Sequence record: OQ990040
Direction: 5' to 3' (one strand)
Length of the DNA: 64,000 nucleotides
Source of the DNA: Escherichia phage SUT_E520
The notes beneath the pieces are model-generated. The model did no database searches. It was given only the letters and a program-made list of their open reading frames with translations, and was not told the origin of the DNA. Numbering within the stretch: the first letter of the stretch is position 1; every line of letters starts with the position of its first letter. A program made the translations under genes and the position numbers. Below are positions 25,420 to 36,497 of this stretch, piece after piece.

Positions 25420-25506
25420 TGGTGCTGGGCACAGGATTCGAACCTGTAACGGGATTACTCCTCCTGATTACAAATCAGGTGCATTCAACCATTCTGCCAA
25501 CCCAGC
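25420..25506 (-). tRNA. tRNA, anticodon UGU (Thr-type) with long variable arm, 87 nt; isotype uncertain
   Basis: acceptor GCTGGGT/GCCCAGC, anticodon arm CCTGA-TTTGTAA-TCAGG, T-arm ACAGG-TTCGAAT-CCTGT, CCA. Confidence 0.5.
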
Positions 25507-25939: not shown

Positions 25940-26015
25940 TGGAGCGGCTAGAGGGAATCGAACCCTACTCAGCGAGGCTTGGAAGGCCTGCGGCACAACC
26001 CGTGTGCTTAACCGC
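25940..26015 (-). tRNA. tRNA-Gly (anticodon UCC)
   Basis: anticodon loop CTTCCAA; 3' end TAGCCGC-T-CCA resembles E. coli tRNA-Gly(UCC). Confidence 0.65.
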
Positions 26016-26490: not shown

Positions 26491-26856
26491 AATTGAAAAC
26501 TCGCAGGGTTAGCGAAACCTTCCTCAATTAGCATGTTCTAGAATACTAATCAAGTTATCTCCTATTGCACGCAGCTCAAGACGAGTACGAATTTTCAATT
26601 GTGGCGGCTCTCAGAAACTCTTCTACTCTAGTCTTAGCAGCTTACTCCCGAACGCATGTCGGGGAAGTCTTACTAAGCGCATCAAATAGCACCGTTACAC
26701 TTTGAGCCATTGGTGTATCAAGAAGCAGAAGGACTTGAACCTTCACGAGATAGACCATTTATCTCAGCCGCTTTATGAGGTATGTTGCAGGGAGTGGATG
26801 TTCCCTATAAACCTTTTAGGCAGCCCCGTCTACCGATTCCGGCATACTTCAGGATT

Positions 26857-26951
26857 TGGAGGTAGGTAAGGGGATCGAACCCTTACACCGTATCACTACG
26901 ATCAACCGATTTCAAGTCGGAGTCCAGCGCCAGCCATTGGATTGACCTACC
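26857..26951 (-). tRNA. tRNA-Ser (anticodon UGA), type II, 95 nt
   Basis: acceptor GGTAGGT/ACCTACC, T-arm AAGGG-TTCGATC-CCCTT, anticodon loop CTTGAAA, long variable arm. Confidence 0.65.
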
Positions 26952-26963
26952 ATATAAATTGTT

Positions 26964-27054
26964 TGGCGGAAGAGGAGAGATTTGAACTCTCAAGCCGTTT
27001 TACCAGTCAGCCACTTTCCAAGCGGTTTTCGTCGCCAATTCGATTTGCTCTTCC
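26964..27054 (-). tRNA. tRNA-Ser (anticodon GGA), type II, 91 nt; D-region atypical
   Basis: perfect acceptor GGAAGAG/CTCTTCC, G73, T-arm GAGAG-TTCAAAT-CTCTC, anticodon loop TTGGAAA. Confidence 0.55.
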
Positions 27055-27166
27055 AATAATAAGATGATGCCTCTATCACACCAGGCAGTTACGCCTCGCT
27101 GGGATTCGAACCCATTAAAACAGCTCAACCGAGATAGTAGGTTTAATTTACTCTGACCATCAAATT

Positions 27167-27243
27167 TGGTGCGTGACAAGGGATTCGAACCCTCAAAACC
27201 CGACTTCTAAGGACGGTATGTATGCCAATTCCATCAATCACGC
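27167..27243 (-). tRNA. tRNA with UAG anticodon (Leu-type) but short variable arm; A73
   Basis: acceptor GCGTGAT/GTCACGC, T-arm GAGGG-TTCGAAT-CCCTT, anticodon loop CTTAGAA with one stem mismatch. Confidence 0.5.
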
Positions 27244-35700: not shown

Positions 35701-36497
35701 TTTAAGTATTTTTAAGAACTCTCGTAAAAACTCTTAAAAATACAGACGATACCGGGAGAGTCATAAGTCTCACTCATTAAGTATTTCAAGACAAAATACA
35801 GTAACGTCTATTATTTTCCAGTTTAAGTCAGGGTGACTTAGTGGTTATGTCCTGCGGTATATTGAGGACTCGGTTAGGCTTGGGGTCATGACTTCCCACC
35901 TTTTGCTGCTACTCAACAGGAGTTATCGCGAATTACCTGTGCTATTGTGCACCATTAGTGACATCTCTCATGTCAGCATTTCCCACTTTGTGGATAGCTT
36001 GAAAAACTACTCCGATATGGAGAAAGAACTTCACTATCCTAGAATACCTTCTAAAGTTCTTCTTTAGCCTGGACATAGTTAAATCGTAATAAAACTATTC
36101 AGCAGACTGGTTGGTTAGTCTGGAACCAACTACCGCGTGGTTTAGGCAGTGCGCAACTAACCTCGGAAGCTTTTATGTTAAAAGCATCAGTTATCCAGTT
36201 CTTACCGACCGTAGGATTCGAACCTACATCTTCCACCAGTTACGGCTTGATAATACCAATTATACTAGGACGGCAGTGTTACTACATAAGTGATTTCCAC
36301 ACCCCACTATTTATAAATCAGAGAAGAGTTTAGGGGAGAGGTTTCAGACGCCTCATTTTACACGTTCTAGCCACTAACCGGGATTGCCGCCCCCTGTGTA
36401 CTAGTTTTACAACTAACCCACCGACTCTATTCAATGCGCTCCGGTTGGGATTCTGCACTCAGCGTAATCGGCTCGCTGTTCCCTAATTTATGAATAT

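What the first reader, a model, noticed from the sequence alone, without database searches (positions are those of the whole stretch)
27167..27243. Short-variable-arm tRNA with a Leu-type UAG anticodon (paralog of 31336-31412)
This 77-nt tRNA has A73 and a predicted UAG anticodon but no long variable arm, whereas bacterial tRNA-Leu is normally type II. Its D-region and GTTTT variable loop parallel the UAA tRNA at 31336-31412, suggesting a paralogous pair reading rare UUA and CUA codons. My anticodon assignment relies on tolerating one stem mismatch.
Basis: seen in the sequence. Interest (0 to 1): 0.4.

Follow-up and report, generated by a model that had tools for sequence, protein, structure and literature searches.

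The report
Phage leucine tRNA without long arm
A T5-like phage carries a real, well-conserved leucine tRNA gene (anticodon UAG) that lacks the long extra arm that bacterial leucine tRNAs are said always to have. This shape is common in phage and mobile tRNA clusters, and it leaves an open, testable question: how does the E. coli charging enzyme handle it?

Summary
Window 27167-27243 (minus strand) is a 77-nt tRNA with encoded CCA, A73, anticodon UAG, a 5-nt variable loop (GUUUU) and one U30·U40 mismatch (ARAGORN; Rfam 47.5 bits). UAG here reads the leucine codon CUA; it is not a suppressor.

The window is a T5-like phage. The gene is ≥95% identical in 161 phage records and is annotated tRNA-Leu.

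It keeps every published E. coli LeuRS determinant: A73, U8:A14, A15:U48, G18G19, A20a and the leucine-type D arm. Only the long arm is missing.

A covariance model built from 58 unrelated short-arm Leu tRNAs scores it 80.9 bits and the UAA gene 83.8. The next window tRNA scores 62.1.

Such tRNAs are frequent in viral contigs and in dense bacterial tRNA arrays, where Ser and Tyr tRNAs keep their long arms.

T5 itself has an 85-nt long-arm Leu(UAG) in the same slot, so the two forms are interchangeable alleles.

CUA is about three times commoner in the phage ORFs than in an E. coli sample.

Caveat: E. coli LeuRS failed to charge the Streptomyces short-arm tRNA-Leu, and charging of this allele is untested.

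Verdict: an annotated gene and a new member of a rare known kind; moderately interesting.

The parts
27167..27243 (-). tRNA-Leu(UAG) gene, 77 nt, class I architecture, CCA encoded
   Evidence: ARAGORN; Rfam RF00005 47.5 bits; held-out short-arm Leu covariance model 80.9 bits
27237..27243 (-). Acceptor stem 5' strand GCGUGAU (tRNA positions 1-7). It pairs with 27171-27177.
   Evidence: ARAGORN bracket structure. In the 61-sequence family alignment all 7 acceptor pairs show changes on both sides.
27218..27236 (-). U8, G9 and the leucine-type D arm: 3-bp stem AUG/CAU plus 11-nt loop GAAUUGGCAUA (G13, A14, A15, G18, G19, A20a, A22)
   Evidence: Same architecture as all five E. coli tRNA-Leu isoacceptors. 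This D-arm signature occurs in 73% of short-arm Leu and 76% of long-arm Leu tRNAs, and in 0 of 1400 other class I tRNAs and 0 of 236 Ser/Tyr tRNAs.
27200..27216 (-). Anticodon arm: stem CCGUC/GUCGG with a U30·U40 mismatch; loop C32 U33 U34 A35 G36 A37 A38
   Evidence: Rfam alignment. The mismatch is retained in PVP-SE1 (CCGUC/GUCGG) and in a FelixO1-like phage (CCAUC/GUUGG), where the neighbouring 29-41 pair covaries.
27207..27209 (-). Anticodon UAG (plus strand reads CTA). It decodes the leucine codon CUA, probably also CUG. It is not a stop-codon suppressor.
   Evidence: Sequence; ARAGORN; Rfam alignment
27195..27199 (-). Variable loop GUUUU (positions 44-48), ending in U48, the partner of A15
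   Evidence: ARAGORN. U48 is present in 204 of 209 short-arm Leu tRNAs.
27178..27194 (-). T arm GAGGG-UUCGAAU-CCCUU (U54, U55, C56, A58)
   Evidence: ARAGORN. U54, U55, C56 and A58 are invariant in the family alignment.
27167..27177 (-). Acceptor stem 3' strand GUCACGC, discriminator A73 (27170) and encoded CCA (27167-27169)
   Evidence: Sequence. A73 is present in 200 of 209 short-arm Leu tRNAs.
31336..31412 (-). tRNA-Leu(UAA), 77 nt; second short-arm Leu tRNA of the same family, with the same GUUUU variable loop
   Evidence: ARAGORN; Rfam 59.9 bits; held-out model 83.8 bits
27249..27327 (-). tRNA-Ala(UGC), 79 nt, 5 nt upstream of the Leu gene on the same strand; probably co-transcribed
   Evidence: ARAGORN; annotated tRNA-Ala in T5_ev212
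27540..27613 (-). Homolog (96% identity) of the annotated T5 promoter P13b, containing TTGCTT...TATAAT. Inferred start of the unit RNA2H (27347-27518), tRNA-Ala, tRNA-Leu(UAG).
   Evidence: T5 reference annotation; BLAST of P13b and RNA2H against the window

Best explanation
This is a working elongator tRNA-Leu(UAG) of a T5-like phage, built on a leucine tRNA body from which the long variable arm is missing.

Shown by the tool results:
- It folds as a cloverleaf with a leucine-type D arm (3-bp stem, 11-nt loop GAAUUGGCAUA), a 5-nt variable loop, A73 and an encoded CCA.
- It belongs to a large, strongly covarying family of short-arm Leu tRNAs found in phages and in bacterial tRNA arrays.
- It occupies the slot where phage T5 itself has a long-arm tRNA-Leu(UAG).

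Inferred:
- It is transcribed from the P13b-like early promoter together with RNA2H and tRNA-Ala, then trimmed by host RNases.
- It is charged with leucine by the host LeuRS. [quoted passage not shown]
- It decodes CUA (and probably CUG by U34 wobble). CUA is the rarest E. coli leucine codon but makes up a fifth of leucine codons in this phage.

The long arm can be lost in leucine tRNAs, but not in serine or tyrosine tRNAs, because only LeuRS does not use it.
For: Gene call. ARAGORN and Rfam agree on the gene, anticodon and structure.

Identity elements. It has A73, U8:A14, A15:U48, G18G19, A20a, and U54/U55/C56/A58. These are the elements the 2023 identity review lists for E. coli LeuRS. The review also states that the long arm and anticodon are not required, and that truncated tRNA-Leu lacking the arm stays active.

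D arm. It matches E. coli tRNA-Leu at 9-13 of 17 positions, and any other isotype at no more than 9 of 17.

Signature. The combination A73 + U48 + Leu D arm is found in 70% of 209 short-arm Leu tRNAs and 76% of 146 long-arm Leu tRNAs. It is found in 0 of 1400 other class I tRNAs and 0 of 236 Ser/Tyr tRNAs from the same loci.

Covariation on 61 family members. 99.0% of cells are paired and 20 of 20 pairs have double changes. The score is 1.047, against 0.246 for shuffles and at most 0.215 for slid controls.

Held-out model. The UAG gene scores 80.9 bits and the UAA gene 83.8. The next window tRNA scores 62.1, E. coli long-arm Leu 54-63, and other E. coli tRNAs 41-51.

Conservation. The gene is ≥95% identical in 161 phage records.

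Allelic interchange. T5 has an 85-nt long-arm Leu(UAG) at the same slot, and 161 records carry an 81-nt form.

Ser and Tyr keep the arm. In the arrays Ser is long-arm in 102 of 104 genes and Tyr in 61 of 61.

Codon usage. CUA is 17.0 per 1000 in 58 window ORFs and 5.9 per 1000 in an E. coli sample.

Published isotype scores. tRNAscan-SE isotype scores for the Leu_TAG of phage Sf14 put Leu on top (67.4). That tRNA has the same anticodon loop, CTTAGAA.

Exclusion of other enzymes. By established E. coli identity rules, a UAG anticodon rules out the anticodon-reading synthetases. The absence of G3·U70 rules out AlaRS. The absence of a long arm and of G73 rules out SerRS (and sequence).
Against: No aminoacylation or expression data for this allele were found.

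Fan et al. 2019 report that E. coli LeuRS did not charge the short-arm tRNA-Leu(CAA) of Streptomyces coelicolor. They describe EcLeuRS as charging only type II tRNA-Leu, and say its leucine-specific domain favours large variable loops. That tRNA has C48 rather than U48, so the result may not transfer, but charging cannot be taken for granted.

The anticodon stem has a U·U mismatch.

Position 37 is A, not the G (m1G37) of E. coli CUN-reading Leu tRNAs.

The pattern scans required part of the D loop, so the invariance of A14, A15, G18, G19 and A20a in the family is partly by construction. A73, U48 and U8 were not in the pattern.

The codon comparison used crude ORF calls and a small host sample.
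Confidence: 0.8

Rival explanations
1. Anti-defence design. The tRNA is still a leucine tRNA, but the loss of the long arm, together with the altered anticodon loop C32/A37/A38 and the conserved U30·U40, was selected to escape attack. It would make the phage copy invisible to host or rival-element nucleases that recognise class II tRNA-Leu. Translation of Leu codons would then continue when host tRNA-Leu is cut. This adds to the best explanation rather than replacing it.
For: Phage tRNAs are documented to resist tRNA-targeting defences through anticodon-loop changes, and T5 tRNAs are involved in several such conflicts.

The loop CUUAGAA differs from host leuW (UUUAGGU) at positions 32, 37 and 38.

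Short-arm Leu tRNAs are concentrated in phage clusters and in mobile tRNA arrays, which the literature regards as putative anti-defence units.

The U30·U40 mismatch is kept across three phage groups while its neighbouring pair covaries.

A tRNA-Leu-cleaving prophage terminase is described in the abstract of PMC11610961. The title of a reference cited in PMC13056530 says human SLFN11 cleaves type II tRNAs.
Against: No bacterial nuclease is known to me, or was found, that reads the long arm of tRNA-Leu.

Sister phages with long-arm (T5) or 9-nt-arm (beppo-type) alleles are equally common.

The simpler explanation predicts the same pattern: the arm is dispensable for LeuRS and so erodes in fast-evolving mobile elements. 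That includes Ser and Tyr keeping their arms.
Confidence: 0.2
2. Recoding or mischarged tRNA. The short-arm tRNA is charged with an amino acid other than leucine, so CUA would be read differently in phage genes.
For: The class I shape is atypical for Leu. EcLeuRS failed on another short-arm tRNA-Leu. In published isotype scores for the related Sf14 Leu_TAG, Ile2 (65.7) and Lys (63.4) are close behind Leu (67.4).
Against: All LeuRS determinants are present and conserved family-wide.

The anticodon UAG fits none of the anticodon-reading synthetases. There is no G3·U70 for AlaRS, and no long arm or G73 for SerRS.

The same slot holds an ordinary long-arm tRNA-Leu(UAG) in T5, while the flanking genes are 97-100% conserved. 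CUA therefore cannot mean different things in these sister phages.
Confidence: 0.03
3. Relic or non-translational tRNA-like RNA. The gene is a decaying copy, or it has a role outside decoding, like the T5 tRNA-like stable RNAs of unknown function that lie next to it.
For: The cluster contains several tRNA-like stable RNAs of unknown function: RNA1, RNA2 and RNA3. The anticodon stem has a mismatch. RNAfold alone does not recover the cloverleaf, and the z-score is only -1.38.
Against: The cloverleaf is otherwise perfect, with an encoded CCA. The gene is ≥99% identical in 130 records. The family shows 99% pairing with compensatory changes at every pair, and the anticodon is always a Leu anticodon. 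The mismatch itself is conserved rather than random.
Confidence: 0.04

Closest known systems
E. coli tRNA-Leu(UAG), leuW (class II, 85 nt)
   Same: Same anticodon, A73 and U8-G9. Same D-arm architecture (3-bp stem plus 11-nt loop with A14, A15, G18, G19, A20a, A22). U48 is present. It scores 63.2 bits with the short-arm Leu model, above every non-Leu E. coli tRNA tested.
   Different: leuW has a 13-nt variable arm (CGCCGCAAGGUGU) against 5 nt here. Its anticodon loop is UUUAGGU against CUUAGAA, so leuW has G37 where this gene has A37. Its T loop is UUCAAGU against UUCGAAU. Its D-loop position 21 is G against U. Its anticodon stem has no mismatch.
Phage T5 tRNAL1(UAG), T5t10 (NC_005859 31624-31708)
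   Same: Same genomic slot (downstream of RNA2H and tRNA-Ala, upstream of the Ser genes), same anticodon, same host.
   Different: The T5 gene is 85 nt and class II, and it shows no BLAST similarity to the window gene. The 97% homology between the two phages stops at 27328, the 5' end of tRNA-Ala, so the Ala-Leu-Ser segment is an exchanged cassette. T5 has the HNH endonuclease hegC next to it. The GenBank note that an anticodon swap gives an amber suppressor refers to the T5 allele, not to this one.
Streptomyces coelicolor type I tRNA-Leu(CAA) (Fan et al. 2019, PMC6614811)
   Same: A bacterial-system tRNA-Leu with a 5-nt variable loop, coexisting with class II tRNA-Leu and served by a single LeuRS. 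U8:A14 is important.
   Different: It is a chromosomal gene of an actinomycete. Its variable loop is ACAGC (C48, not U48). A73 is reported not to be an identity element there. E. coli LeuRS did not charge it. Phages are not mentioned in that paper.
Animal mitochondrial tRNA-Leu (class I)
   Same: Short variable loop. Identity rests on A73 and A14. Mismatches in the anticodon stem are tolerated.
   Different: It is organellar, with a reduced and floppy structure and a dedicated mitochondrial LeuRS. There is no sequence relationship.
tRNA array units of bacteria, plasmids and mycobacteriophages
   Same: Dense clusters of 20-37 tRNA genes covering most amino acids, with sequences that differ from the chromosomal copies. 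The short-arm Leu family is found in such arrays across several phyla.
   Different: The papers read here do not describe the short-arm Leu feature. The window's cluster is part of a lytic phage genome, interleaved with small ORFs and stable RNAs.

Membership tests
tRNA (Rfam RF00005) | Cloverleaf with a 7-bp acceptor stem, D, anticodon and T arms, a 7-nt anticodon loop with U33, and a T loop UUCRANY | tested here: met
   47.5 bits against a gathering score of 29, over the full-length model 1-71; ARAGORN call
tRNA-Leu (E. coli LeuRS identity set) | Discriminator A73 | tested here: met
   A at 27170. A73 is present in 200 of 209 family members. Its role as an identity element is taken from PMC9976931.
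tRNA-Leu (E. coli LeuRS identity set) | Tertiary core: U8:A14, trans-Levitt pair A15:U48, G18G19 and A20a in the D loop, with partners U55, C56 and U54:A58 | tested here: met
   All of these nucleotides are present. Only the sequence was tested, not the fold.
tRNA-Leu (E. coli LeuRS identity set) | Leucine anticodon (NAG or YAA) | tested here: met
   UAG
tRNA-Leu (E. coli LeuRS identity set) | Is actually leucylated by the host LeuRS | not testable with these tools
   No data were found for this allele. EcLeuRS failed on a different short-arm tRNA-Leu.
Class II (type II) tRNA, the class to which bacterial tRNA-Leu normally belongs | Long variable arm (more than 10 nt, stem-loop) | tested here: not met
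   The variable region is 5 nt, GUUUU. The E. coli Leu tRNAs have 13-15 nt.
Class II (type II) tRNA | 3-bp D stem with unpaired 13/22 and an enlarged D loop | tested here: met
   AUG/CAU plus an 11-nt loop with G13 and A22. The body is therefore class II-like even though the arm is gone.
Short-arm (class I) tRNA-Leu family of phages and tRNA arrays (defined here) | High score with a covariance model built from 58 members that excludes the window genes | tested here: met
   80.9 bits (UAG) and 83.8 bits (UAA), against 62.1 for the next window tRNA
Suppressor tRNA | Anticodon complementary to a stop codon (CUA, UUA or UCA) | tested here: not met
   The anticodon, read 5'-3', is UAG, which pairs with the sense codon CUA.
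tRNA-Ser / tRNA-Ala (the other anticodon-independent identities) | Ser: long arm plus G73. Ala: G3·U70. | tested here: not met
   No long arm; A73; the 3-70 pair is G-C.

The most novel reading that the evidence does not exclude
Losing the long arm is an adaptive counter-defence trait of mobile-element tRNA-Leu genes. Phages and tRNA arrays would carry armless Leu tRNAs (here also with a conserved U30·U40 and an altered anticodon loop) because some widespread host or competitor nuclease, or another tRNA-binding factor, picks out class II tRNA-Leu by that arm. A corollary is that E. coli LeuRS, and many other bacterial LeuRS enzymes, must charge class I tRNA-Leu efficiently. That would contradict the published view that only the Streptomyces enzyme does.
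Probability: 0.15. Interest if true: 0.7.

Novelty: new member of a known kind. Interest (0 to 1): 0.45.

Why it matters
[quoted passage not shown] The one bacterial exception studied biochemically (Streptomyces) was presented as rare, and E. coli LeuRS was said to charge only the long-arm type.

Here an armless tRNA-Leu sits in a classic coliphage lineage in 161 database records. It alternates with long-arm alleles at the same locus. It also belongs to a family found in viral contigs and in dense tRNA arrays of several bacterial phyla.

If it is charged by E. coli LeuRS, as the conserved identity elements predict, the stated specificity of that enzyme needs revising. The long arm of cellular tRNA-Leu would then be kept for a reason other than aminoacylation. 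The natural short-arm and long-arm allele pair in T5-like phages offers a ready experimental system for asking what the arm is for.

Tried and rejected
1. BLAST of the 77-nt gene against all complete E. coli genomes found no match even at E ≤ 10. It is not a recent copy of a host gene.

2. Single-sequence RNAfold gave a non-cloverleaf minimum-energy fold with a weak z-score. I rejected this as uninformative because the covariance-model and covariation evidence is decisive.

3. Whole-molecule percent identity to E. coli tRNAs did not separate isotypes: Val 62%, Leu 55-59%. Only the D arm and the identity positions are diagnostic.

4. A recent within-genome duplication of the UAG and UAA genes is not supported.

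5. Nine of the ten allowed full-text literature searches found no paper describing a short-arm tRNA-Leu in T5 or in other phages. The older T5 tRNA papers are not in the searchable library, so prior description cannot be excluded. PMC115294 (Larkin et al. 2002) is not held.

6. The counts of promoter-like and terminator-like sites were not above the shuffled expectation. Homology to the annotated T5 promoter was used instead.

7. An unannotated Leu-like element at 26716-26846 was considered as a remnant of the lost long-arm tRNA-Leu. It proved to be the known T5 stable RNA1.

8. tRNAscan-SE isotype models could not be run. A held-out covariance model was used as a substitute.

Full report
**1. 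The observation**

ARAGORN finds 21 tRNA genes on the minus strand between 24.3 and 35.7 kb of the window. Among them are tRNA-Leu(tag) at 27167-27243 and tRNA-Leu(taa) at 31336-31412. Both are 77 nt with the CCA end encoded.

Rfam's tRNA model matches 27170-27243(-) at 47.5 bits against a gathering score of 29. Its alignment puts the anticodon loop at CUUAGAA and marks U30·U40 as the only non-standard pair.

The ARAGORN structure is:
- acceptor stem GCGUGAU/GUCACGC
- U8, G9
- a 3-bp D stem (AUG/CAU) with an 11-nt loop GAAUUGGCAUA
- A26
- anticodon stem CCGUC/GUCGG
- a 5-nt variable loop GUUUU
- T arm GAGGG-UUCGAAU-CCCUU
- A73, then CCA

Read 5'-3', the anticodon UAG pairs with the sense codon CUA, so this is not a suppressor tRNA.

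**2. Where the window comes from**

The 12.5-kb tRNA region is 100% identical to Escherichia phage SUT_E420 and 99.9% identical to T5_ev212 and EC148 (Tequintavirus).

The 77-nt gene is ≥99% identical in 130 phage records and 95-99% identical in 31 more. It is usually annotated tRNA-Leu. Relatives at 84-88% identity occur in Felixounavirus and in PVP-SE1-like phages. A 75% relative occurs in Vibrio phage River4.

No E. coli genome holds anything similar.

**3. Is it a leucine tRNA?**

I fetched E. coli K-12 tRNAs of 19 isotypes, including all five Leu isoacceptors.

All E. coli Leu tRNAs share these features:
- U8-G9
- a 3-bp D stem
- the 11-nt loop [G/A]AAU[U/C]GGUAGA
- A73
- a variable region ending in U

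The window gene has the same D-arm architecture. It matches the E. coli Leu D arms at 9-13 of 17 positions and matches no other isotype at more than 9 of 17.

The 2023 identity review (PMC9976931) lists the E. coli LeuRS elements as A73, A15-U48, G18G19, A20a and the D/T-loop tertiary pairs. It also says that neither the anticodon nor the long arm is required, and that truncated tRNA-Leu lacking the arm remains active. Every listed nucleotide is present here.

By the same rules a UAG anticodon fits none of the anticodon-reading synthetases. The 3-70 pair is G-C, so AlaRS is excluded. There is no long arm and no G73, so SerRS is excluded.

Published tRNAscan-SE isotype scores for the Leu_TAG tRNA of Shigella phage Sf14 put Leu first (67.4), ahead of Ile2 (65.7) and Lys (63.4). 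That tRNA has the same loop, CTTAGAA. I did not compare it directly with the window gene.

**4. A family, not a one-off**

*Viral contigs.* I scanned viral contigs with a degenerate pattern: the Leu D loop, 9 nt, YTTAGR, 14-40 nt, then the T loop. Match lengths were bimodal. Twenty-five matches had a 5-nt variable loop, 94 had 11-18 nt, and one had 9 nt.

Hits came from Acidobacteriota, Bacillota, Bacteroidota, Proteobacteria and other groups. ARAGORN on those loci shows that the genes lie in dense tRNA arrays. The median is 8 tRNAs per locus of at most 8 kb, and the maximum is 37.

*Ser and Tyr keep the arm.* In these arrays Ser (102 of 104) and Tyr (61 of 61) keep their long arms, while Leu is mostly short-armed.

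*Conserved positions.* Among 209 unique short-arm Leu tRNAs, 200 have A73, 204 have U48 and 95% have U8. None of these three positions was part of the search pattern.

*Signature.* The combined signature A73 + U48 + Leu D arm occurs in 70% of short-arm Leu tRNAs and 76% of long-arm Leu tRNAs. It occurs in none of 1400 other class I tRNAs and none of 236 Ser/Tyr tRNAs from the same loci.

*Covariation.* On 61 members, the class I cloverleaf is 99.0% paired and all 20 pairs have changes on both sides. The covariation score is 1.047, against 0.246 in shuffles and at most 0.215 when the partners are slid.

*Held-out model.* I built a covariance model from 58 members, excluding the window genes and their close PVP-SE1 relative. 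It scores the window UAA gene at 83.8 bits and the UAG gene at 80.9. The next window tRNA (Glu) scores 62.1. E. coli long-arm Leu tRNAs score 54-63 despite the insertion penalty, and other E. coli tRNAs score 41-51.

*A correlated change.* D-loop position 21 is mostly U in short-arm Leu tRNAs and G in long-arm ones.

**5. The paralog claim**

The UAG and UAA genes share 13 of 17 D-arm positions, the whole variable loop and 14 of 17 T-arm positions. They share only 5 of 14 acceptor positions.

Outside the anticodon they are 69% identical, which is the 83rd percentile of all pairs in the family. Each has closer relatives elsewhere: PVP-SE1 and River4 for UAG, and several viral contigs for UAA.

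They are members of one family, not a recent duplication.

**6. Alleles at the same locus**

*The T5 slot.* The curated T5 reference genome (NC_005859) has, in the same slot, tRNAL1(UAG) of 85 nt. This is a class II tRNA with no BLAST similarity to the window gene.

*The cassette boundary.* The 97% homology between T5 and the window runs through promoter P13b and stable RNA2H. It stops at 27328, the 5' end of tRNA-Ala. The Ala-Leu-Ser-Ser segment is therefore an exchanged cassette. T5 carries an HNH endonuclease gene (hegC) within it.

*A third allele.* An 81-nt allele with a 9-nt variable region and the host-like loop UUUAGGU is found in Epseptimavirus and related phages.

*Allele counts.* At ≥95% identity, record counts in the phage database are:
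- 161 for the short-arm allele
- 52 for the T5 long-arm allele
- 161 for the 81-nt allele

Sister phages of the same hosts thus use short-arm and long-arm tRNA-Leu(UAG) interchangeably. This argues that the short form works as a leucine tRNA in enterobacteria.

**7. Use**

In 58 long ORFs of the window (13,024 codons), CUA is 17.0 per 1000 (20% of Leu codons) and UUA is 22.3 per 1000 (26%). In 10,993 codons of annotated E. coli K-12 genes, CUA is 5.9 per 1000 (5%) and UUA is 19.2 per 1000 (18%).

The phage therefore supplies readers for the two A-ending Leu codons. CUA is the one that is truly scarce in the host.

The P13b homolog at 27540-27613(-) is 96% identical to the T5 promoter. The 5-nt spacing from tRNA-Ala suggests a transcription unit P13b, RNA2H, tRNA-Ala, tRNA-Leu. 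This is an inference from homology.

**8. What remains uncertain**

*Charging.* I found no charging or expression data for this allele. Fan et al. 2019 (PMC6614811) studied the short-arm tRNA-Leu(CAA) of S. coelicolor. They report that E. coli LeuRS could not charge it. They describe EcLeuRS as charging only type II tRNA-Leu, and they call the Streptomyces enzyme the only prokaryotic LeuRS known to handle both types. That tRNA has C48, so it lacks the A15:U48 pair that E. coli LeuRS needs, and it has unusual identity rules. The negative result may not apply here, but it keeps the key step inferred rather than shown.

*The U30·U40 mismatch.* It is retained in T5-like, PVP-SE1-like and FelixO1-like phages while the adjacent 29-41 pair covaries (G-C to A-U). 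It looks selected, and its role is unknown.

*The anticodon loop.* It differs from host leuW at positions 32, 37 and 38. This fits the published idea that phage tRNAs change their anticodon loops to escape nucleases. Nothing links the missing arm to any nuclease.

**9. Comparison with what is known, and verdict**

The gene itself is annotated in hundreds of records. A class I tRNA-Leu is known from animal mitochondria and from Streptomyces.

In the literature I could search, I did not find any of the following:
- recognition that coliphages of the T5, FelixO1 and rV5/PVP-SE1 groups carry such tRNAs
- recognition that bacterial tRNA arrays of several phyla carry them routinely
- the observation that short-arm and long-arm alleles alternate at one locus in T5-like phages

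The older T5 papers are not searchable, so earlier description cannot be ruled out.

I file it as a new member of a known kind. It is a functional tRNA-Leu (confidence about 0.8) and is of moderate interest. Its main value is the directly testable conflict with the stated specificity of E. coli LeuRS, together with a natural system for asking what the long arm of tRNA-Leu is for.

Noticed in passing
window 25420-25506 (-): The tRNA-Thr(UGU) of this phage shows the reverse oddity. It is 87 nt with a long variable arm (AGGAGUAAUCCCGUU), a 3-bp D stem and an 11-nt D loop GAAUGGUUGAA, plus G1-C72, C2-G71 and A73. T5 itself has an ordinary 75-nt Thr(UGU). The 87-nt allele is ≥90% identical in about 100 T5-like records. 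A 76% relative exists in Aeromonas phage Ah1.
   Followed up: partly
window 26716-26846 (-): This is a tRNA-like RNA of about 130 nt. It has an acceptor stem and a D arm identical in type to E. coli leuZ (CCG-GAAUCGGUAGA-CGG). It also has a Leu-type T arm, a 6-bp extra arm and a long extended 'anticodon' arm ending in a conserved loop GAACAUCCACUC. It is present full-length in 492 phage records and is nearly always unannotated. Compensatory changes are visible in the acceptor, extra-arm and inner stems. It corresponds to T5 'RNA1, tRNA-like stable RNA with unknown functions'.
   Followed up: partly
window 26857-26951, 26964-27054, 25940-26015, 31918-31995, 36203-36274 (all -): These tRNA genes were missed by ARAGORN but are found by Rfam and/or annotated in T5_ev212 and T5. 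They are two class II Ser tRNAs (anticodons UGA and GGA), Gly, a CAU-anticodon tRNA annotated Ile2 in T5, and one unnamed tRNA. The Ser(UGA) gene scores best as tRNA-Sec (37.6 bits, below the gathering score).
   Followed up: partly
window 27328 and the tRNA region 24.3-36.3 kb: The tRNA set is mosaic relative to T5. Met, Ile1, Gly, His, fMet, Asp, Cys, Phe, Glu, Ile2, Ser3 and Arg are 97-100% identical. Leu, Ala, Thr, Ser1, Ser2, Gln, Lys, Pro, Asn, Trp, Tyr and Val have no or only partial BLAST match. One homology break lies at the 5' end of tRNA-Ala (27328). T5 carries HNH endonuclease genes (hegC, hegA, hegD) at or near the exchanged sites. The UAA Leu gene has no counterpart in the T5 region examined.
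   Followed up: partly
window ~27090-27160 (-): A T-arm-like sequence (GGGUUCGAAUCCC, about 27099-27112) sits in the 112-nt gap between tRNA-Ser(GGA) and tRNA-Leu(UAG). No tool calls a tRNA there. It may be a remnant of an exchanged gene.
   Followed up: no
window 29449-29531 (-) and 27613-27691 (-): tRNA-Asn(GUU) is 83 nt with a 13-nt variable region. tRNA-Lys(UUU) is 79 nt with an enlarged D arm and is labelled 'tRNA-?' in T5_ev212.
   Followed up: no
loci L136, L139, L194 (bacterial tRNA arrays): The arrays that carry short-arm Leu tRNAs also contain tRNAs of 93-95 nt with anticodon UAU (called Ile) and a long variable arm. This is another class/anticodon combination that is not standard.
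   Followed up: no
loci L136, L137, L143, L148, L153 and about 35 more (Acidobacteriota genomes): One nearly invariant short-arm tRNA-Leu(UAG) (GCCAGCGUG[C/U]GCGAAUUGGAAUAGC...) recurs in dozens of Acidobacteriota species genomes. Some copies are on contigs of 0.7-2.2 Mb, next to Tyr, Ser and further short-arm Leu genes. Whether it is a core chromosomal gene or part of a mobile array was not resolved.
   Followed up: no
alignment of 209 short-arm and 152 long-arm Leu tRNAs: D-loop position 21 tracks the class of the tRNA. It is mostly U in short-arm Leu (…CAUA, …UAUA) and mostly G in long-arm Leu (…UAGA). The search pattern did not fix this position.
   Followed up: partly
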